Shown here: piece after piece, positions 2,900-64,000 of the stretch
How positions within the stretch are numbered: position 1 is the first letter of the stretch
Layout of the letters: the number at the start of each line of letters is the position of its first letter
Source: an uncultured Gammaproteobacteria bacterium
Lineage (GTDB): Bacteria; Patescibacteriota; Microgenomatia; UBA1406; HO2-37-13b
Length of the DNA: 64,000 bases
NCBI GenBank assembly: GCA_964422025.1
Contig: CAYQYZ010000001.1
Location: 184,200-248,199, forward strand
Direction: 5' to 3'
Made by a program: the position numbers and the translations under genes
Notes under the pieces: generated by a model
Seen by the model: the letters and a program-made list of their open reading frames with translations, nothing else
What the model was told of the DNA's origin: nothing
The model's database searches: none

Positions 2900-3331
2900 A
2901 TGGATAAAAATACATCACAACTTCGCTCTGTATCTGCTATTACTGCAACTACAGCACATAATGCAGTTAGCGTTGCTTTTGCAGAAGCAACAAAAGCAGG
3001 TGTTAATATTTCTGTTGCGGTGGTAGATACGTCCCTTACACTTATTGCCTTCGCTAAAGGCGATGGTTCTACTGCTCATAGTGCAGAAACAAGCAAACGA
3101 AAAGCGAATACAGCAGCATCTACTGGAAAAGCAACAGGTTGGATGGATTCAAATCTTGCCACAACGCTTCCTATGGCTTCAGGAAACATACTGACCAATA
3201 TTCCAGGTGGTGTTCCGCTTCGATTCGATGGAGTTCTCGGCGGTGGACTGGGAATTGCTGGCGGAACGGTTGAACAAGATAACGCAATCGCTCACGCTAC
3301 TTTGCTTGCTATTGGCGCTGATACTGCTTGA
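2900..3331 (+). CDS. GlcG/HbpS-like (DUF336) putative heme/cofactor-binding protein
   Basis: Gly/Ala-rich pattern (AAHNAVSVAFAEATKAGVNISVAVVD...GGVPLRFDGVLGGGLGIAGGT) typical of DUF336. I chose the internal ATG at 2900. The ORF-track start at 2828 adds an implausible N-terminal extension. Confidence 0.55.
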   Translation: MDKNTSQLRSVSAITATTAHNAVSVAFAEATKAGVNISVAVVDTSLTLIAFAKGDGSTAHSAETSKRKANTAASTGKATGWMDSNLATTLPMASGNILTNIPGGVPLRFDGVLGGGLGIAGGTVEQDNAIAHATLLAIGADTA

Positions 3332-4746
3332 TACGTGTTTTGTCGCAATCCGTGAATATTATTTCTTCTCTTTTTGACAGTTTCTTCATCTGTCCCTGCA
3401 GTAACCAAAATATTTCCCAACTCCATGCCTTGGGGTGTTGCAACGTAGTACGGAGCGAATCTATTGATAACCATAAGCTCTTTCGGTTTCGAGCGACTAT
3501 TACGAATGTGACTTACGGGGAATCGTGCAGACTCTTGGAATCGTTGAATAACCCAATAGCTTCCGCCATCCAGAGGTTCAGTAAGTGCGGATTCTAGCGC
3601 CCGTTTCCACGAATCAAGGTGAACATCTTCTGAGATTACCAAACCCTTTGATCCGGTTGAACCATCCGTATCTCCACCCCGTTTTAATACCATTTGGAAT
3701 TCTGGTTTTAATTGTGCGACATCATCAATAGTAAATTGCTCTGATCCGATTCGTACTAAACTACTAGTTGAATCGACTACTCCTGTAGGCGCATGCAAAT
3801 CCTGTAAATCTTGCTGTCGATCAAATACTGTTCCGTAAGCAGGATCAAAAAGTGTGCTCAGTAAGATTTTATCCGACAATGGCAATACGGATCCCAACAT
3901 ATCAACTTTGCCGTGCAGAGATGCTCGTACAAGTGCAACTTCAGATTCAAAACTTTTTCCTTTACTAAAGCCTGGGAGCTTGAATTCTCGATCAACAACG
4001 TCAAGTACAATTCGATTGCCGTCCTCTTCAAGGTATACTACATCTTCGCCGTATCTAATGTCGGACAATCGAGCAGTACGCCACGTAATTCCACGCCGTT
4101 TTCCTATTTCGGATGCAATCCGTGCAAAATATCTATTTTGCGAATCATACTCATTTCTGTAATCATCGGGGAGTATGGTAGCTACTTGAATAACTCCTTT
4201 ACCTCCGTGTCTTTGGCTAATTTGTCTTACGAATAATTGAGCTAGATTGGCTCCAATAACTTCCTTTCCTAAAAACTGTCGTGAATAATCGTTGACTCCT
4301 TGAGTATTGCCTTTATCAGCGCCACCATCTGCATTGTATTCAATAACAGTAAAGTCACCATTCGCATCAATAATCATGTCAGGACGTGAACTAAATACCC
4401 GTTCACCTTTCTTTGCCGCTTCAATCCACAATGCAATTGTTTCATCTGGAACTCCTGCAGTTATATATCGATTGAGTTGTTGTAATGATGGAGATAAATT
4501 TCGAGTACTTGGATTCAGTGCATTTCGTAGTAATGAAGCTGATCCATGGTGAAATGAGTGAATTAGCTCAGGTACATCCGTACCAAGAAATAATTCTTGC
4601 CTTTCAGTTACCTCATGAGTATTGAGTGCCAATGTCCAAGAAGCATCACCATTATCACGGGGTTTATCGCCATAGTAAAGATCATGCTCAGTTAAGTAAC
4701 CTTCAATTTGCGATGCAATTAGTTGTGGATCGTATTCGTTTTTCAT
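3292..4746 (-). CDS. Glutathionylspermidine-synthase family (pre-ATP-grasp, GspS/YgiC-like) protein
   Basis: 484 aa. The EYNAD motif (FTVIEYNADGGADKG) recalls the conserved LLEYNADTP of GSP_synth/YgiC-type ATP-grasp enzymes. No search was possible, so the family call is tentative. Confidence 0.45.
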   Translation of the reverse strand: MKNEYDPQLIASQIEGYLTEHDLYYGDKPRDNGDASWTLALNTHEVTERQELFLGTDVPELIHSFHHGSASLLRNALNPSTRNLSPSLQQLNRYITAGVPDETIALWIEAAKKGERVFSSRPDMIIDANGDFTVIEYNADGGADKGNTQGVNDYSRQFLGKEVIGANLAQLFVRQISQRHGGKGVIQVATILPDDYRNEYDSQNRYFARIASEIGKRRGITWRTARLSDIRYGEDVVYLEEDGNRIVLDVVDREFKLPGFSKGKSFESEVALVRASLHGKVDMLGSVLPLSDKILLSTLFDPAYGTVFDRQQDLQDLHAPTGVVDSTSSLVRIGSEQFTIDDVAQLKPEFQMVLKRGGDTDGSTGSKGLVISEDVHLDSWKRALESALTEPLDGGSYWVIQRFQESARFPVSHIRNSRSKPKELMVINRFAPYYVATPQGMELGNILVTAGTDEETVKKRRNNIHGLRQNTYQAVSAPIASKVA

Positions 4747-5910: not shown

Positions 5911-5982
5911 AAATTCATTTTAGCATCATTTATCTCTAATTTCTAAGGTGCGTTTTTAAGAAGAAAGCGATATAATCGGATC

Positions 5983-7758
5983 ATGAAAAAAGATCAATAT
6001 GAAAAGCTAATTGCCGATATTGAAGCACAATCATTTGACATAAAGTATGACTTTGAGATTGCAGAAGCATTCAGTAGGCTCATTGAAGATCATAAAGATA
6101 GATTTACCACAGAGCAAGAGAAGCAACTAAAATGGGAGTTTTTACTGTTCCGGCTGATGACAAAAAACCACTTTGCATCTGACGGCTTGAAGACTGAGCG
6201 GTTTGTCCCAATGGCCACGTTCAATGATGGGAGCATTTTCCCAGATCCCAACTCATTTGCTGAGTCAGCACTTTTATACTTTGCGAGTAGAGCAAAAGAA
6301 TCAAAGAATCCAATTTTAAAAGCACGGTACTTAGATTTTTTATGGGAAAAGTCAAAGGATAAAAAGAAACATTTTTTTGCAATTGAAGCTATTGACCAGT
6401 ACTTACTTACAGTAGATTCCTACCAGGTAGAAGAAGCAATTATAGAACGGCTTGATGGCCTGCAAAGGGCGACTGAACTTGCGCTTATTTTTGAAGCTAA
6501 AAAGACCGAGCAACCACTATGCAGCAAGGTTGTTGCCAAGCTTAATGAGCTTATTGAAACAACAGCAAAGGATAAGAAATACCGATGGCTAATTGAGATG
6601 TTTGAGCTTGTTTTGACCCTTCCATCGTTCTACTCTGAAAAACAGGTTAAAGAGTTTATTTCTTTATGTGAGGCTGCTGCAGAGAGTTATCACGCTGATC
6701 AAAACTTCCATTTGCAAAGACATTTTTTGCAGCTAAAAGCAGACCTAATAAAACTCATAAACACTGCTACCAATCCTCAAAAAGCTGTGGATGAAGAGAT
6801 TGGTAAGGCCTGGATTGATGAAGCGGAAGCAAAATCTGGAAGCGGTCTTGTCAAAGTGCATTTTCTTCAACAAGCCATTGATCATTATTCCAAATTAGGA
6901 AATATGAAGAAAGTGGAAGAGCTTGTAACAGAAGTTAAAGCAGCTACTAAACAAGCCATTGATAACAAGGAGTTCAAACAGTTTTCCTCTACAGTTGAAA
7001 TGAAAAAAGAGGATGTCGAGAAAATGAAAGCAAGTCTTGGTACAGGTGAGGAAGTGCCTGAGAGAATTGGGACAGTGCCAACATTTTTCCCTAATTGGGA
7101 TCAGGCAGTAAAGATGACAGAGAAGCATCGTAAGGAGTTTGTCTTCTTGCATATGGTCAATAAGGTTAGTTATGGCCAGGAGTATCCCATAAGCTCTCCT
7201 CAAACTCCTGAGGAGCAACAGGAAGATCAAGTAATGGACAACTTCAAAATTATTGCTGACCTTTCACTCCAGTGGCTTACCAGTTTCTTAGAGGAGTTAA
7301 AAAAGGAGAAGAAAGTATCATTAAAGGATTTCCAAAAGTTTTTTTCATTTCTGAAGGCTGTTGATGAAGATACTCATGAAACTGTTTTGCAGGGATTAGG
7401 TTCATACTTCAAAGGCGATCATTTCAATGCAACTTATGTTTTAACACTACAATTGGAGGATTTCTTGAGACGATTACTTGCTGGTTTTGGGAAGGAAACT
7501 ACAATGCCTGAGAAAGGGGCTTTCAGAGAGAAAACATTGGGGCCAGTACTCCGTGAACTGAAAGTATATATCCCAGAGCCAATTTACCGGTATATTTGTT
7601 GGGTAATGGTAGATTATCGTGGCTTCAACCTGAGGAATGATATTGCCCATGGCTTTTTCAAGAAGAAGAGAGCAAACCCCATCTATTCAACTGCAGTCAT
7701 CCATATTTTCTGCCTACTGATCGCAAATACAAAGATATCTATTAAGGAGAGGAAATAA
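5983..7758 (+). CDS. Large all-alpha-helical protein with a C-terminal HEPN-like R-x4-H motif (DUF4209-like). Candidate effector of a two-gene defence cassette
   Basis: 591 aa with no Walker A. The C-terminus (YICWVMVDYRGFNLRNDIAHGFF) carries RN-x3-H. This matches the RNxxxH signature I recall for DUF4209 and the HEPN R-x4-6-H RNase motif. A 1-nt gap separates it from the next gene. Confidence 0.55.
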   Translation: MKKDQYEKLIADIEAQSFDIKYDFEIAEAFSRLIEDHKDRFTTEQEKQLKWEFLLFRLMTKNHFASDGLKTERFVPMATFNDGSIFPDPNSFAESALLYFASRAKESKNPILKARYLDFLWEKSKDKKKHFFAIEAIDQYLLTVDSYQVEEAIIERLDGLQRATELALIFEAKKTEQPLCSKVVAKLNELIETTAKDKKYRWLIEMFELVLTLPSFYSEKQVKEFISLCEAAAESYHADQNFHLQRHFLQLKADLIKLINTATNPQKAVDEEIGKAWIDEAEAKSGSGLVKVHFLQQAIDHYSKLGNMKKVEELVTEVKAATKQAIDNKEFKQFSSTVEMKKEDVEKMKASLGTGEEVPERIGTVPTFFPNWDQAVKMTEKHRKEFVFLHMVNKVSYGQEYPISSPQTPEEQQEDQVMDNFKIIADLSLQWLTSFLEELKKEKKVSLKDFQKFFSFLKAVDEDTHETVLQGLGSYFKGDHFNATYVLTLQLEDFLRRLLAGFGKETTMPEKGAFREKTLGPVLRELKVYIPEPIYRYICWVMVDYRGFNLRNDIAHGFFKKKRANPIYSTAVIHIFCLLIANTKISIKERK

Positions 7759-7759
7759 T

Positions 7760-8737
7760 ATGGTTTGGAAAATTGTTACAAAAGATATTGATCCTAATGA
7801 TCAAATAATAAAAGGACTCTTTGATGAAGCTGTTGCAGCTGCTCCGCCCAATTATGTAAAAACAATGGGTAATGGAGAGGTTGAAATGGAAGATACTGTA
7901 GCTTTGTTACCGCGTAATCCAATTAAAGGAAAGTGTCGCTTGTGTGGTCAAGAAGCCGATCTCACAAAAGAACATATCCCACCCAAGTCCAGTGGTAATA
8001 AGCAAAGACATACAAAACTAACTTTTGATGATTGGTTGAAGGATCATTTGGAAGCTAATTCCAATTCAAAGCATACTGTTGAACAGGGAGGTATTTTTGG
8101 ATACACACTTTGTCGCAAATGTAATTCACTTACAGGTAACCTGTATGGGACTGAATATAAGCTTTGGGTAGAAAGGGCACGAAAGCTTATAGATATTGAA
8201 ACTATTACCAAGTTGGACAAAATGATTGGCCCATTTGGAGATAGTCTTAATTTTGGAAGTAAAGAAGATGGTGGGGTCAAACCAGGGGCATTTGTAAGAC
8301 AAGTGCTGTCGTGCATGTGTAGCTTAAGTGGGTCGTGGGATTTAGCTGAAAAATATCCGGTACTTCGCAGGATAATTTTGGAACAGTCTACAGAAAAACT
8401 ACCTGCTGGATTAGAGATAGGTATGACAATTTACTTTGGCCCAAATGTACGCATTCATGGGCCACAGCTGAGAGTGGATAAAAAAACTGGAATATGGCGC
8501 TGGTGTCAAGAAATAGCATTTCCTCCTTTTGCATTCATGATGGTAATAGCCAGCAACAGCAAGAAGCCAGGAGAAGGTCTTCTGATAAACAACATGACAC
8601 AAGCCTCTCCAGATGAAATGCAAAACTTTACAGGTATCGTTGAAATGGGTTTTGGCTGGGCACCATATCCAGGAGACTATCGTTCAAAAGCTAGGATTAT
8701 TGCTGATCGCTCTATAAGAGATAAGATCTCAATGTGA
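7760..8737 (+). CDS. HNH-endonuclease-domain protein (HNH_5-like N-terminal domain plus ~200-aa uncharacterised C-terminal domain)
   Basis: CRLCGQEADLTKEHIPPKSSGN ... LCRKCNSLTG is the C-x2-C ... EH-I-P-x-S-x-G ... C-x2-C-N pattern of HNH nucleases. Start is 2 nt after the stop of the upstream gene. Confidence 0.65.
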   Translation: MVWKIVTKDIDPNDQIIKGLFDEAVAAAPPNYVKTMGNGEVEMEDTVALLPRNPIKGKCRLCGQEADLTKEHIPPKSSGNKQRHTKLTFDDWLKDHLEANSNSKHTVEQGGIFGYTLCRKCNSLTGNLYGTEYKLWVERARKLIDIETITKLDKMIGPFGDSLNFGSKEDGGVKPGAFVRQVLSCMCSLSGSWDLAEKYPVLRRIILEQSTEKLPAGLEIGMTIYFGPNVRIHGPQLRVDKKTGIWRWCQEIAFPPFAFMMVIASNSKKPGEGLLINNMTQASPDEMQNFTGIVEMGFGWAPYPGDYRSKARIIADRSIRDKISM

Positions 8738-8908
8738 AGCTAAGGCGTAATCCTTACTTGAGAAAACTTCAAAAAGTTGTGTCATTTCTTGTATGATCGG
8801 TTCGAGAAGCTCATCGTTAAGCACCCAAAGATAAGATGGACTTCAGAACTCCAATTTTTTTCTTGCGATTAATTTGAATCAAATAACGGCATACTATATA
8901 ATTTCAAT

Positions 8909-9511
8909 ATGGCTAAAGGGAGCAGGCAATTAAAAGTAACGTTCTTAATTATCCCACTGTTTATCGTTTTTATAGCAGCGGTTTTCTGCTCATTTTTATT
9001 CGGCATTCATTGGCAGGAAACTTTAGGAATGAAAAAACTTAATGATAACTCCATCGAGAAATTATTATGCTTTGGAGATAATAACTTTACCGAAACATTT
9101 CAATATAACTGCTATTCCCCTATAACAACTCCATTTAAAGGTTTCACTTCACATTTAGAATGTCGTGTCCTTACCAATCTTCAAATGAATTCACAATCAT
9201 CTAAATATAATGAACTAATGACAATTAAAGCTGACTATATAAAATTTTCTTTGAATTTTAGCAAAAACATGACCCTTATTGAGCAATCACTCCAGCCTGG
9301 AGAACCCGTAAAAGAACTTTATAAAATTGTTGAAAATAACGAAAATATAATTCATGGAATTAGAAATACAAGGCTAGATGATTTTCACGCTGAAGAGTAT
9401 GAATTTATCACACTTTCGAAGAAGACTGGCAAAGGAATGGTTTCTTGGATATATAGTCAAGATAATTTGAATAGTGATAATATTGCTTTAGAATTTTTTC
9501 AATGTAACTAG
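8909..9511 (+). CDS. Hypothetical protein with N-terminal signal anchor, in an AT-rich region
   Basis: 200 aa with N-terminal TM (VTFLIIPLFIVFIAAVFCSFLF). No recognisable domain. Confidence 0.4.
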   Translation: MAKGSRQLKVTFLIIPLFIVFIAAVFCSFLFGIHWQETLGMKKLNDNSIEKLLCFGDNNFTETFQYNCYSPITTPFKGFTSHLECRVLTNLQMNSQSSKYNELMTIKADYIKFSLNFSKNMTLIEQSLQPGEPVKELYKIVENNENIIHGIRNTRLDDFHAEEYEFITLSKKTGKGMVSWIYSQDNLNSDNIALEFFQCN

Positions 9512-9584
9512 ATTTAAACTATTTGGGATCGAAATATCTATCCGGTCACCCGTGACAACCTTCTTAGAATATTCCTCCATCACA

Positions 9585-10163
9585 TTAGAGCACAAGTATA
9601 TACAGATGAGAAAGTAGGTAAAGAATCGAATCTAGTGCAACTGAAATTTGAGTATCTCGCTCAGGCACCAAGCCCATGGGTGATATAAAATATCTGTTTG
9701 TTTCTGAAACTGTTTGTACTACGATGTACCAATTTTCACTCTCTTTAGCTATAAAGGAACGAACAAATTTGCCACTTACTTGGGGAATTTTGAATCCATG
9801 TGTTTTTCCTTCATGTACAAGATTGTCTGTGCAAAATGAAGGATTATTGCCCACCGAAGAAACATACATTGTCGATATAAACACACAACCAGATGGAGTA
9901 ACTACATCATCGATTCTGTCATGATCCATATCTACTCGCACAACATGGGGTAAATTCCAATCTGATATCGAATAAATTTTACTGTATCTATGGAATACAG
10001 AAAATTGATCAAATGTTGGTACTATAAATGTAAGAATATTAGAGCAAAAAACAACAATAGCAGTAATTAAAAAGATCGAAAGCAATATGTAAATGCCAGG
10101 GTACTTCTTAACAAGAGCTTTTTTGAAAATCTTTTTATAATTCATTTCAGATAAGTTTATCAT
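9585..10163 (-). CDS. Hypothetical membrane-anchored protein
   Basis: 192 aa with N-terminal TM (GIYILLSIFLITAIVVFCSNILTFIV). No recognisable domain. Confidence 0.4.
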   Translation of the reverse strand: MINLSEMNYKKIFKKALVKKYPGIYILLSIFLITAIVVFCSNILTFIVPTFDQFSVFHRYSKIYSISDWNLPHVVRVDMDHDRIDDVVTPSGCVFISTMYVSSVGNNPSFCTDNLVHEGKTHGFKIPQVSGKFVRSFIAKESENWYIVVQTVSETNRYFISPMGLVPERDTQISVALDSILYLLSHLYILVL

Positions 10164-11723: not shown

Positions 11724-11812
11724 AACGTAAACTATATATCAATAATTTGCTGTACAGTGATAAATTAATCTGCTTGCATTCAGCAATTTTAACAATATAT
11801 ACTAAGTCAACT

Positions 11813-13054
11813 ATGTTAACGTATCTAGCATTCGAAATAATTGCGTCATTAATCGCTATTATATCAATCGGAGCCCTTATGTGGGAATTTCTGAAGAATA
11901 GTCATGCAACAAAGGTAATCACTTCAAAACGAGTAATACTATTACTTACAGTACTTGGACTTTCTATAAGTGTAGGATTCTTTGCTCATAAAACATATCC
12001 TCCAGCATTTGCAATGCCGCCATTTGACCATTCTCATGCTCCTGGGGAATTACCCGCATCGATTCCACTTAGCGGCATTTATAACTTTTTTAAATATCAA
12101 CATGCATTCGAAAAAGTTACCACCATTGGGGCAGATCCAAACAGCGTTCCTAAAACACCCCAAAAACCTGATTCAGATGGAATAATAAGAATTAATTTGA
12201 TTGCACAAGAAGTTATCTCGCAAATCGCGCCCGATATTTATTTTAATTACTGGACGTACAACAGGCAAGTTCCCGGACCTATGCTTCGTATAAAAGAAGG
12301 GGATACGGTGGAAATTTCTTTAACAAACCATCCATCGAGCTTGCATGATCATAACATCGATCTGCACGCAGTTACCGGCCCTGGTGGCGGCGCAAGTTTA
12401 ACCCACGTTAAACCTGGTCAAACAAAAACGTTCCAATTTAAGGCTTTAAATCCGGGATTATATGTGTATCATTGTGCCATGCCTAATGTATCTACACATA
12501 ATTCTCACGGGCAATATGGACTTATTCTTGTAGATCCCAAAAAGCCACTCGCAAAAGTAGATAGAGAATTTTATATTATGCAAGGAGAGCTTTATACAAT
12601 GGGTCAATTAGGAAAAAAAGGGCTCGTTCCATTTGATTCCAAAGCACTTCTTGATGGAAGACCAAATTATATTACATTTAACGGCATGATCGAACGTGCA
12701 CCTCGCATGGAGGCGCGTGTCGGCGATCGAATTCGCATGTACGTTGGCAATGGGGGAGTTAATCTTATTTCTTCATTTCACATAATTGGCGAAATTTTTG
12801 ACACCGTATATCCTGAAGCAAATATTGGGGGAACTATTGAAAAAAACGTTCAAACAACCGCTGTATTAGCCGGAGGAGCAACTATCGTAGACTTTACTGT
12901 TGATGTACCCGGTAAATACCTTTTAGTTGATCATGCGCTCGCCCGTATGAACAAGGGGGCATGGGCAATGCTTACGGTTACCGGACCAAAAAATGAACAT
13001 ATTTTTAAAGAAATCCCATCGGAGAACCAAGAAATGCCTAACACAATGCACTAA
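11813..13054 (+). CDS. nirK: Copper-containing nitrite reductase (NirK)-like two-domain multicopper oxidase, membrane-anchored
   Basis: LHDHNIDLHAVTGPGGGA corresponds to HN(V/I)DFHAATG (T1/T2 Cu His ligands). LYVYHCAMPNVSTHNSHGQYG corresponds to (V/F)YHCAP...H (the His-Cys pair). I chose the start at MLTYLAFEII with an N-terminal TM, not the ORF-track 11747. Confidence 0.6.
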   Translation: MLTYLAFEIIASLIAIISIGALMWEFLKNSHATKVITSKRVILLLTVLGLSISVGFFAHKTYPPAFAMPPFDHSHAPGELPASIPLSGIYNFFKYQHAFEKVTTIGADPNSVPKTPQKPDSDGIIRINLIAQEVISQIAPDIYFNYWTYNRQVPGPMLRIKEGDTVEISLTNHPSSLHDHNIDLHAVTGPGGGASLTHVKPGQTKTFQFKALNPGLYVYHCAMPNVSTHNSHGQYGLILVDPKKPLAKVDREFYIMQGELYTMGQLGKKGLVPFDSKALLDGRPNYITFNGMIERAPRMEARVGDRIRMYVGNGGVNLISSFHIIGEIFDTVYPEANIGGTIEKNVQTTAVLAGGATIVDFTVDVPGKYLLVDHALARMNKGAWAMLTVTGPKNEHIFKEIPSENQEMPNTMH

Positions 13055-16677: not shown

Positions 16678-16765
16678 GCTCGGGTGGTGAAATTGGTATA
16701 CACGCAGGTTTTAGGAACCTGTGCCTTAAACGGCGTGGAGGTTCAAGTCCTCTCCCGAGCACCAT
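16678..16765 (+). tRNA. tRNA-Leu (anticodon TAG), type II with long variable arm, CCA encoded
   Basis: Acceptor GCTCGGG/CCCGAGC, D-arm GTG..CAC, anticodon stem CAGGT/ACCTG with loop ttTAGga, variable stem-loop gcc..ggc, T-arm GGAGGTTCAAGTCCTCT, then ACCA. Confidence 0.8.
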
Positions 16766-23783: not shown

Positions 23784-23857
23784 GGGCGGTTAGCTCAGTT
23801 GGCTAGAGCGTTGCATTGACATTGCAAAGGTCACAGGTTCAAGTCCTGTACTGCCCA
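23784..23857 (+). tRNA. tRNA-Val (anticodon GAC), CCA not encoded
   Basis: Acceptor GGGCGGT/ACTGCCC (one G-U), D-arm GCTCAGTTGGCTAGAGC, anticodon stem TTGCA/TGCAA with loop ttGACat, T-arm ACAGGTTCAAGTCCTGT, discriminator A. Confidence 0.8.
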
Positions 23858-23909
23858 CACTCCTCGAACTTGACCCCTTCAGATACTTCCTGTACTATTA
23901 CCTACTACT

Positions 23910-62762: not shown

Positions 62763-62943
62763 TTACCTACTTCGAAACATTCGAGAGTTCGGTTACTGTT
62801 TCGCGCACGTTAACAATATGGATGTGGTGGAAAAACTAGTTTAGTTTTCTACAAAATACCAATGCCTATTCTACCGACACCGCAAGGTGAGGCCGGAATG
62901 GTATAGTATTATTTTTGAAAGTTTTTTATAAAAATTTTATTTA

Positions 62944-64000
<1,057 letters not shown>

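What the first reader, a model, noticed from the sequence alone, without database searches (positions are those of the whole stretch)
5983..8737. Candidate undescribed two-gene defence/abortive-infection cassette: HEPN-like (DUF4209-type Rx4H) helical protein plus HNH nuclease
Two genes separated by 1 nt, so almost certainly co-transcribed. Gene 1 is a 591-aa all-helical protein with no ATPase motifs. Its extreme C-terminus carries NLRNDIAHGF, an R-x4-H signature that defines HEPN RNase active sites and matches the RNxxxH motif I recall for DUF4209. Gene 2 is 325 aa with a clear HNH_5-type nuclease core (C-x2-C ... KEHIPPKSSG ... LCRKCN) and ~200 aa of unassigned C-terminal sequence. The pair sits amid mobile-element genes (orphan TerS immediately upstream, primase-helicase and XRE within 5 kb) and AT-rich hypotheticals. 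That is the typical context for phage-defence cargo on satellites and prophages. Septu (ATPase+HNH) is excluded because the partner has no Walker A. I know of no described system that pairs a DUF4209/HEPN-like protein with an HNH_5 nuclease. A putative RNase (HEPN) and DNase (HNH) pairing is mechanistically suggestive of an abortive-infection effector pair, or of a toxin with its regulator.
Basis: partly seen in the sequence, partly recalled or inferred. Interest (0 to 1): 0.85.

Follow-up and report, generated by a model that had tools for sequence, protein, structure and literature searches.

The report
Two shuffling nuclease defence cassettes, adjacent
The two genes are real and correctly read (a HEPN-type RNase candidate followed by an HNH-type DNase candidate in one operon), but they are not a dedicated two-gene system: each swaps neighbours freely in related genomes, and the first is already catalogued as a single-gene phage-defence candidate.

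The parts
5971..5976 (+). TATAAT -10-like hexamer 6 nt before the gene 1 start codon, with no evident Shine-Dalgarno. Possible promoter of a near-leaderless bicistronic mRNA.
   Evidence: Read directly from the sequence. Not reported by the two-hexamer scan. Inference only.
5983..7758 (+). Gene 1: 591-aa DUF7380 + DUF4209 (HEPN) protein, a PADLOC PDC-S39 homolog.
   Evidence: ORF. Pfam DUF7380 4.3e-11 and DUF4209 7.5e-9, both above cut-off. PDC-S39 2e-46 over residues 19-568. AF2 pLDDT 86, nearly all helical.
6160..6510 (+). DUF7380 region (aa 60-176) within the N-terminal helical-repeat part of gene 1. Presumed sensor or scaffold.
7453..7710 (+). DUF4209 / HEPN domain of gene 1 (aa 491-576).
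7633..7650 (+). Rx4H catalytic motif RNDIAH (R551...H556).
   Evidence: R551 and H556 are invariant in 26 homologs, including three that read RYKVGH.
7744..7752 (+). Shine-Dalgarno AAGGAGAGG for gene 2, embedded in the last codons of gene 1.
   Evidence: Sequence.
7760..8737 (+). Gene 2: 325-aa protein of a large uncharacterised family, with an HNH_5-like His-Me finger and a conserved alpha/beta C-terminal domain.
7925..8137 (+). His-Me finger core (aa 56-126): C59xxC62, E71-H72, N80, an insert of about 35 aa, then C118xxC121-N122.
   Evidence: Invariant columns. HNH_5 match at aa 59-87. The AF2 secondary structure shows a hairpin at 56-72 and a helix at 119-128.
8222..8689 (+). Conserved C-terminal domain of gene 2 (aa ~155-310, mixed helices and a beta-sheet, ending in FGWxPYPGDYRS). 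Function unknown.
   Evidence: Conservation. AF2. No fold match.
8874..8902 (+). Promoter-like site (TTGAAT-17-TATAAT) for the next gene (8909-9511). It marks the likely 3' limit of the bicistronic unit.
   Evidence: Consensus scan, 10 of 12 matches. The total number of sites in the region is no higher than in shuffles, so this is weak evidence.

Best explanation
The locus is a bicistronic operon formed by juxtaposing two autonomous, single-gene nuclease cassettes. Both are drawn from a pool of interchangeable Abi-like genes that shuffle within defence islands of integrative or conjugative elements, here most likely in a Patescibacteria-type genome.

Gene 1 (a PDC-S39 family member) is a helical-repeat protein ending in a HEPN RNase domain. 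By analogy with characterised HEPN defence proteins, it is probably held inactive until an invader-derived cue acts on the N-terminal helical domain. HEPN dimerisation or oligomerisation would then assemble the composite Rx4H site, and RNA cleavage would arrest the cell (abortive infection).

Gene 2 is a zinc-stabilised His-Me (HNH-type) nuclease with a family-specific C-terminal domain. It most likely acts on DNA on its own.

Shown here: domain identities, conserved catalytic residues, operon signals, neighbourhood statistics and partner switching. Inferred: defence function, RNase and DNase activities, the trigger, and independence of action.
For: Gene 1 identity.

Gene 2 identity and family size.

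Facultative pairing: among about 32 distinct gene-2 loci with at least 1.8 kb upstream, a DUF4209 HMM hit occurs in 2.

Other neighbours of gene 2: DUF5677-like (L009, L016, L021, L025), Abi_alpha-like (L008, L022, L026), 8xMP (L013, L035), DUF4238 (L049, L020), DUF4145/PD-T7-4 (L018), Ymh/TIGR02391 (L071), GajA (L017), or none (L001 group, L014, L033, L034, L012).

Other genes downstream of gene 1: a HEPN 259-aa protein, an unknown 228-aa family (three loci), a HEPN-like 359-aa protein, or none.

Partner types interleave at the tips of both trees. The window's gene 2 is 80% identical to copies paired with DUF5677-like genes, but only 72% identical to the copy paired with the 90%-identical gene 1. 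L023's gene 1 is 84% identical to a copy paired with the 228-aa family.

The same families form arrays without gene 2: L079 has DUF5677-like, then Abi_alpha-like, then HEPN-like 371 aa. L022 has DUF5677-like, then Abi_alpha-like, then gene 2.

In L074 gene 2 and a DUF5677-like gene are adjacent but divergently transcribed.

One partner family, DUF4145 (RAZR/PD-T7-4), is experimentally a stand-alone Abi RNase (PMC13017515). PADLOC lists PDC-S39 and DUF4238 under single-gene names.
Against: In the clade of gene 2 most similar to the window copy (about 57% identity or more), roughly 13 of 18 distinct loci have one of only four unrelated families directly beside gene 2. That neighbour is usually upstream, on the same strand, and separated by between a 4-nt overlap and a 21-nt gap. 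Some would read this regularity as functional coupling.

The DUF5677-like/gene 2 adjacency survives an inversion in L074.

Gene 2 has no recognisable promoter of its own in the window.

No member of either family has been tested experimentally, so even a defence function is inference from context.

The sample is dominated by short metagenomic contigs, and gene calls in high-GC loci are uncertain.
Confidence: 0.55

Rival explanations
1. Modular two-component system. Gene 2 is a promiscuous common module, either effector or regulator. It works together with whichever Abi-like protein is encoded just upstream (DUF4209, DUF5677-like, Abi_alpha-like, 8xMP, DUF4238 and others). This would resemble the variable effectors of CBASS, retrons or Lamassu, or the hyper-promiscuous Panacea antitoxin domain.
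For: Tight same-strand coupling recurs with a small set of unrelated families, and each is re-associated with gene 2 at several separate positions on the gene 2 tree. The SD sits inside the upstream gene and there is no internal promoter. The DUF5677-like adjacency is kept even when the genes are divergent. Several partners belong to the HEPN superfamily: DUF4209, DUF4145 and Ymh (PMC3710099).
Against: Gene 2 often stands alone or next to unrelated systems (L001 group, L014, L033, L034, L012, L017). Every partner family also occurs without gene 2. Order and orientation are not fixed (L020, L026, L074). The partners share no detectable homology that could provide a common interface (hhalign probability 0.3%). 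RAZR works alone.
Confidence: 0.22
2. Gene 2 is a selfish, free-standing HNH homing-type endonuclease gene. It inserts immediately behind other genes and borrows their transcription, and its activity promotes local recombination. This would explain the partner switching.
For: An HNH core. A patchy distribution across Patescibacteria, Gammaproteobacteria, Actinomycetes, Planctomycetota, Bathyarchaeia and Bacillota. Usually the downstream, promoterless position. Rapid change of neighbours. HNH_5 genes are reported among integron cassettes (PMC7370490).
Against: No homolog in 50,697 phage genomes. Not found within introns or inteins. A conserved C-terminal domain of about 200 aa with no DNA-binding fold match. 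The neighbours are specifically defence-type genes rather than conserved housekeeping targets. No pairs of otherwise syntenic loci with and without gene 2 were found. With gaps from -4 to +21 nt there is no room for attC sites.
Confidence: 0.1
3. Toxin-antitoxin-like pair. One protein (the HEPN RNase or the HNH nuclease) is a toxin that the other neutralises, and the module is triggered by infection.
Against: Both proteins are large and both keep intact catalytic motifs. Neither has a DNA-binding or MNT-type antitoxin domain. Both occur as solo genes, which a free toxin would not tolerate.
Confidence: 0.08

Closest known systems
PADLOC PDC-S39 (single-gene 'phage defence candidate'; DUF4209 proteins)
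   Same: Gene 1 matches the PDC-S39 HMM almost end to end (2e-46) and has the same DUF7380+DUF4209 architecture as its relatives. It occurs in defence islands without a fixed partner.
   Different: It is a divergent Patescibacteria-centred clade, 20-26% identical to Thermoanaerobacter and other members. Here it is co-transcribed with an HNH gene. PDC-S39 itself has no experimental validation; 'not confirmed' is the wording in PMC11878078.
DUF4209 / C6orf70 (ERMARD) family of the HEPN superfamily (Anantharaman et al. 2013, PMC3710099)
   Same: C-terminal HEPN domain with a conserved Rx4H. The paper notes that bacterial members occur in R-M-related operons. HEPN fold confirmed here.
   Different: The paper lists fusions to TPR and WD40 and R-M neighbourhoods. 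It does not describe an HNH_5 partner. The eukaryotic members are membrane proteins.
RAZR / PD-T7-4 (zinc finger + DUF4145 HEPN; PMC13017515)
   Same: A stand-alone HEPN RNase that acts by abortive infection and is activated by assembling on phage proteins. A RAZR-like gene occupies the gene 1 position upstream of a gene 2 homolog in L018. It is the best mechanistic model for gene 1.
   Different: A different HEPN family and a different N-terminal domain: a zinc ribbon in RAZR, a ~480-aa helical repeat in gene 1. No trigger is known for gene 1.
Septu (PtuA ATPase + PtuB HNH) and other ATPase+HNH pairs
   Same: A two-gene operon ending in an HNH nuclease.
   Different: The partner has no P-loop (no Walker A, no ATPase family hit). 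Gene 2 matches no PADLOC Ptu model.
McrA-type / Type IV HNH restriction nucleases (His-Me finger group 1) and the uncharacterised HNH_5-only group 8 of Jablonska et al. 2017 (PMC5714182)
   Same: A CxxC...[D/E]H...N...CxxC[H/N] zinc-stabilised His-Me finger, with a nuclease domain joined to a second domain that could read the target.
   Different: A ~35-aa insert splits the finger. The last metal ligand is Asn. The C-terminal domain has no known fold relative. No evidence for recognition of modified DNA.
Panacea (SocA-like) hyper-promiscuous antitoxin domain, as an analogy for partner switching
   Same: One conserved gene is found beside many unrelated partner families in tight two-gene operons. 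A Panacea-domain gene even follows gene 2 in L023.
   Different: Gene 2 has an intact nuclease motif, often occurs alone, and has no similarity to Panacea. A neutralising role is untested.

Membership tests
HEPN superfamily, DUF4209 family (gene 1) | Profile match to PF13910 above the curated cut-off | tested here: met
   36.0 bits against a cut-off of 22.3, aa 491-576. All close homologs carry PF13910 + PF24098.
HEPN superfamily, DUF4209 family (gene 1) | Conserved Rx4-6H motif | tested here: met
   R551 and H556 are invariant in 26 sequences down to 20% identity. N549, G547, E492 and R496 are also invariant.
HEPN superfamily, DUF4209 family (gene 1) | Alpha-helical HEPN fold | tested here: met
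HEPN superfamily, DUF4209 family (gene 1) | RNase activity and dimeric composite active site | not testable with these tools
   Needs biochemistry. The multimer state was not predicted.
PADLOC PDC-S39 | Near full-length match to the PDC-S39 HMM | tested here: met
   PDLC05012 2e-46, residues 19-568 aligned to model positions 26-584 of 615. PDLC05011 2.4e-41.
PADLOC PDC-S39 | Single-gene unit with no obligatory partner | tested here: met
   Downstream genes vary or are absent among homologs.
PADLOC PDC-S39 | Demonstrated anti-phage activity | not testable with these tools
   PDC entries are candidates described as 'not confirmed' (PMC11878078).
HNH / His-Me finger nucleases, HNH_5 (gene 2) | Profile match to PF14279 | tested here: met
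   27.5 bits, equal to the cut-off, covering aa 59-87 and the first half of the model only. 47 of 60 family members hit at E<=0.01, best 4.6e-8. Marginal for the single protein, solid for the family.
HNH / His-Me finger nucleases, HNH_5 (gene 2) | Catalytic His, structural Asn, metal-ligand Asn/His and four zinc cysteines all conserved | tested here: met
   C59, C62, E71, H72, C118, C121 and N122 are invariant. N80 is at least 90% conserved.
HNH / His-Me finger nucleases, HNH_5 (gene 2) | Beta-beta-alpha-metal fold recognisable by structure comparison | tested here: inconclusive
Dedicated two-gene defence system (DUF4209 + HNH_5) | Conserved co-occurrence of the two families | tested here: not met
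   About 2 of 32 distinct gene-2 loci carry DUF4209. 0 of 23 gene-1 loci sampled without regard to pairing carry gene 2. The pair was seen only in the window, L010, L023 and L068-70.
Dedicated two-gene defence system (DUF4209 + HNH_5) | Congruent phylogenies of the two genes | tested here: not met
   Partner types interleave on both NJ trees. Gene 1 is 91% identical where gene 2 is 72% identical in the closest pair.
Septu (PtuAB) | P-loop ATPase partner | tested here: not met
   No Walker A. No ATPase family hit. No Ptu hit in PADLOC.
Phage homing HNH endonucleases | Occurrence in phage genomes, introns or inteins | tested here: not met
   No tblastn match in 50,697 phage records. Only 7 IMG/VR loci, mostly 23-31% identical (one 58%).
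Integron gene cassettes | An attC site after each cassette | tested here: not met
   Intergenic distances of -4 to +21 nt leave no room for an attC site.
Type II toxin-antitoxin module | A toxin that cannot exist without its antitoxin; an antitoxin with a DNA-binding or neutralising domain | tested here: not met
   Both genes occur alone. No antitoxin-type domain was found. Toxicity itself is not testable here.

The most novel reading that the evidence does not exclude
Gene 2 may define a large, undescribed family of His-Me-finger proteins with a new fold that acts as a hyper-promiscuous partner module. It would be translationally coupled to at least six unrelated Abi-like proteins (DUF4209, DUF5677-like, Abi_alpha-like, 8xMP, DUF4238, DUF4145/Ymh HEPN). 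On this reading the window's pair is one instance of a new class of mix-and-match two-gene immune or toxin modules that is especially diversified in Patescibacteria.
Probability: 0.2. Interest if true: 0.7.

Novelty: new variant of a known kind. Interest (0 to 1): 0.38.

Why it matters
If the best explanation holds, this is an ordinary piece of a defence island. It serves as a caution that a 1-nt gap in a compact genome does not define a system.

Two points have some value:

1. Gene 2 belongs to a widespread family (about 2,900 clusters at 50% identity). It has an intact nuclease motif, no entry in PADLOC 2.0, no informative annotation and no solved structural relative, and it is consistently embedded among defence genes. 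That makes it a reasonable new candidate for functional testing.

2. The Patescibacteria loci show an unusually clean picture of Abi-like genes behaving as interchangeable, tightly packed cassettes. This could help delimit functional units in genomes where no experimental system exists.

Neither DUF4209/PDC-S39 nor the gene 2 family has been tested. A simple phage-challenge experiment with single genes and with the pair would settle both their function and their independence.

Tried and rejected
1. Obligate DUF4209+HNH system: rejected on the co-occurrence counts and on incongruent trees.

2. All gene 2 partners are HEPN homologs: not supported. DUF5677-like against DUF4209 by hhalign gives probability 0.3%. 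8xMP is a membrane protein. The Abi_alpha-like and DUF5677 matches of the partners are below the Pfam cut-offs, although many homologs carry a precomputed PF18928 hit.

3. The variable genes downstream of gene 1 share gene 2's C-terminal domain: no similarity by BLASTP.

5. Phage homing endonuclease: no phage hits.

6. Septu: no ATPase.

7. Element boundaries: no convincing att-like direct repeats around the locus. The nearest tRNA is 8 kb away.

8. Literature: no paper in the library links DUF4209 with an HNH partner, and DUF7380 is not mentioned anywhere.

9. The first genome-contig scan with the 60-sequence alignment failed for lack of a conserved stretch. It was repeated with 45 sequences.
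Full report
**1. The observation**

The window has two same-strand ORFs at 5983-7758 (591 aa) and 7760-8737 (325 aa). The stop codon of the first (TAA, 7756-7758) is separated from the ATG of the second by one base. A strong Shine-Dalgarno (AAGGAGAGG, 7744-7752) lies inside the last codons of gene 1. The consensus scan finds no terminator-like or promoter-like site between them, and a promoter-like site precedes the next gene at 8874-8902. A TATAAT hexamer ends 6 nt before the gene 1 ATG. A bicistronic operon is therefore plausible from sequence, though not demonstrated. Neither protein has a Walker A motif.

**2. Gene 1**

- **Family hits.** Pfam gives DUF7380 (aa 60-176, 4.3e-11) and DUF4209 (aa 491-576, 7.5e-9), both above the curated cut-offs. 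PADLOC gives PDC-S39 at 2e-46 over nearly the whole length.
- **Prior classification.** DUF4209 was assigned to the HEPN superfamily (the C6orf70 family) by Anantharaman et al. 2013. They predicted it to be catalytically active and noted bacterial members in R-M-related operons (PMC3710099).
- **Conserved residues.** In an alignment of 26 homologs reaching 20% identity, E492, R496, G547, N549, R551 and H556 are invariant. A lone Rx4H would occur by chance about 0.5 times in such a protein, so the conservation is what counts.

**3. Gene 2**

- **Homologs and motif.** There are 120 full-length homologs, none with an informative name. Invariant residues are C59, C62, E71, H72, P74, G111, C118, C121, N122, G126, P256 and R308. 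This is the zinc-stabilised CxxC...EH...N...CxxCN pattern of His-Me finger nucleases, split by an insert of about 35 residues.
- **HNH_5 support.** Pfam HNH_5 scores exactly at its cut-off for this protein (27.5 bits), but 47 of 60 relatives hit it.
- **Family size.** A profile search of 1.84 billion representatives finds 2,856 clusters at E<=1e-3 and 745 at E<=1e-30. Most are about 260 aa and lack the N-terminal ~45 residues.
- **Conclusion.** The nuclease call rests on sequence motifs. The ~200-aa C-terminal domain has no detectable relative among solved structures.

**4. Is it a pair?**

I fetched loci anchored on gene 2 from viral contigs, species-representative genomes, metagenomes and plasmids. 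I fetched loci anchored on gene 1 from public assemblies and viral contigs.

*From the gene 2 side.*
- Of about 32 distinct loci with at least 1.8 kb of upstream sequence, a DUF4209 HMM hit is present in two, L010 and L023.
- Elsewhere the gene directly upstream on the same strand is one of the following:
  - a DUF5677-like protein (L009, L016, L021, L025; 1-nt gap or 4-nt overlap);
  - an Abi_alpha-like protein (L008, L022);
  - an 8xMP membrane protein (L013, L035);
  - DUF4238 (L049);
  - a RAZR-like zinc-ribbon+DUF4145 HEPN protein (L018);
  - a Ymh/TIGR02391 HEPN protein (Iamia plasmid, L071);
  - an unknown 541-aa protein (L039).
- In L020 and L026 the Abi-like neighbour lies downstream. 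In L017 Gabija follows.
- In L001 and its relatives, and in L014, L033, L034 and L012, gene 2 has no same-strand partner.

*From the gene 1 side.*
- Six close homologs (58-70% identical), chosen only for contig length, are followed by a HEPN 259-aa protein, an unknown 228-aa family (three times), a HEPN-like 359-aa protein, or nothing.
- A Thermoanaerobacter homolog sits behind a SIR2-HerA pair.
- None of 16 IMG/VR loci has a gene-2-family ORF within 4 kb.
- Only the 90%-identical homolog P0121 repeats the window's arrangement.

**5. Partner switching**

On a neighbour-joining tree of gene 2, partner types are interleaved at the tips. The window copy (DUF4209 partner) is sister to L021 and L025 (DUF5677-like partner, 79-80% identity). 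L016 (DUF5677-like) is sister to L008 (Abi_alpha-like). L023 (DUF4209) is sister to L009 (DUF5677-like). On the gene 1 tree, L023 (HNH partner) is 84% identical to P0149 (228-aa family partner). In the closest repeat of the pair, gene 1 is 91% identical but gene 2 only 72%.

The same families also form arrays. L079 reads DUF5677-like, then Abi_alpha-like, then HEPN-like 371 aa, then a 209-aa protein. L022 reads DUF5677-like, then Abi_alpha-like, then gene 2. In L074 a gene 2 homolog and a DUF5677-like gene are adjacent but divergent. DUF5677-like and DUF4209 proteins show no profile-profile similarity.

The surroundings include m5C methylases with putative restriction enzymes, Eco47II, integrases, resolvase, relaxase, T4SS genes, and Zeta, YafQ and AbiEii toxins. 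These are defence islands on integrative or conjugative elements, mostly of Patescibacteria.

**6. Interpretation**

The most economical reading is that these are autonomous single-gene cassettes from a common pool, packed head to tail in compact genomes and reshuffled often. The window's pair is one such juxtaposition sharing a promoter. Support from known biology:
- RAZR (DUF4145) works as a single protein by abortive infection, through HEPN RNase activity switched on by assembly on phage proteins (PMC13017515).
- PADLOC lists PDC-S39 and DUF4238 under single-gene names.

For mechanism I therefore propose the following. Gene 1 is a trigger-activated HEPN RNase whose large helical N-terminal part senses the invader and controls oligomerisation. 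Gene 2 is a separately acting HNH-type DNase whose unknown C-terminal domain provides target or trigger specificity. Both are inferences.

The main rival is that gene 2 is a promiscuous common module that really cooperates with whatever Abi-like protein precedes it. It draws on the striking regularity of tight upstream coupling in the clade closest to the window (about 13 of 18 loci) and cannot be excluded computationally. I give it about 0.2. A selfish homing-type HNH gene gets about 0.1; it is weakened by the absence of gene 2 from 50,697 phage genomes. A TA pair gets about 0.08; it is weakened by solo occurrences of both genes.

**7. Comparison with known systems, and novelty**

Gene 1 is a new, divergent member of PDC-S39/DUF4209. 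Gene 2 is a member of a large unnamed family related to HNH_5. An uncharacterised HNH_5-only group is listed in the His-Me finger classification (PMC5714182), but whether it is the same family was not tested. The combination is not Septu, since there is no ATPase, and it is not any PADLOC 2.0 multi-gene system. I found no paper that describes it.

It is best filed as a new variant of a known kind, namely stacked single-gene nuclease defences in an island, rather than a new system. The residual interest lies in gene 2's family and in the cassette-like behaviour of Abi-type genes in Patescibacteria.

**8. Limits**

- Sampling is from fragmentary metagenomic contigs.
- My ORF calls in high-GC loci (L037, L044, L047, L057) are unreliable and were not used.
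- Some partner assignments (Abi_alpha-like, DUF5677-like) are below the Pfam cut-offs for the individual proteins.
- The trees are simple NJ trees.
- The organism is inferred only from the taxonomy of the closest homologs.
- No function has been tested for any of these families except RAZR.

Noticed in passing
window 62937-64000 (+): The 5' two-thirds of a bacterial 16S rRNA gene (Rfam SSU_rRNA_bacteria, 919 bits), cut by the end of the window. It could be used to place the organism, but I did not attempt this. tRNA-Leu(tag) lies at 16678-16764 and tRNA-Val(gac) at 23784-23858.
   Followed up: no
No primase or helicase domain was found next to it.
   Followed up: partly
window 5971-5985 (+): A TATAAT hexamer ends 6 nt before the gene 1 ATG and there is no Shine-Dalgarno, which suggests a leaderless or near-leaderless transcript. 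Gene 2, in contrast, has a strong SD.
   Followed up: no
L013 8001-8974 and L035 6001-6974: In a Bathyarchaeia MAG and in a second metagenome contig, the gene 2 homolog (65% identical) is split into two ORFs at the same point. It follows an 8xMP octameric membrane protein gene (2.9e-41). This could be a shared pseudogene, a recoding event, or the same organism sampled twice.
   Followed up: no
L062 5781-6467, L066 4835-5464, L067 4817-5503: An unannotated family of about 228 aa (67-75% identical to each other, no Pfam or PADLOC hit) lies directly downstream of DUF4209 genes in three loci, overlapping them or at most 34 nt away. It is an alternative occupant of the gene 2 position.
   Followed up: partly
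L079 3001-6323; L075 3001-4949; L065 5787-6866: L079 carries an array: DUF5677-like, then Abi_alpha-like, then a 371-aa protein with an RNQIIHG (Rx4H) motif, then a 209-aa protein. It lies next to an HTH-m5C methylase, a 330-aa putative restriction enzyme and an integrase. The same ~360-aa HEPN-like family follows DUF5677-like in L075 and DUF4209 in L065. It has only a weak HEPN_Apea hit (0.026).
   Followed up: partly
L074 2012-3855: A gene 2 homolog (59% identical, minus strand) and a DUF5677-like gene (plus strand) are transcribed divergently, 30 nt apart, in a Roizmanbacteria contig. Zeta-toxin, YafQ-toxin and GIY-YIG genes lie close by.
   Followed up: partly
L023 2891-3499: A SocA/Panacea antitoxin-domain gene (3.3e-21) lies 46 nt downstream of the DUF4209-gene 2 pair in this metagenome contig.
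   Followed up: no
L071 (Iamia sp. plasmid NZ_CP050949.1) 5001-5882: The 42%-identical gene 2 homolog has no feature in the PLSDB gene table. It lies just after a TIGR02391 (Ymh-type HEPN) gene and a very large methyltransferase-domain gene, and before an XRE/DUF4411 pair and an integrase.
   Followed up: partly
window 3292-4746 (-) and 8909-10163: A 484-aa ORF has no Pfam, NCBIfam or PHROG hit. Two ORFs with an N-terminal hydrophobic stretch that looks like a membrane anchor (200 and 192 aa) lie just downstream of gene 2 and also have no family hits. I did not establish whether they belong to the same island.
   Followed up: no
window 11747-13054 (+): A 435-aa two-domain multicopper oxidase / cupredoxin protein (Cu-oxidase_3 6e-16) with an N-terminal hydrophobic, membrane-anchor-like stretch, in what looks like a Patescibacteria-type genome. 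It is flanked by DUF1905 and DUF4256 genes and a histidine phosphatase.
   Followed up: no
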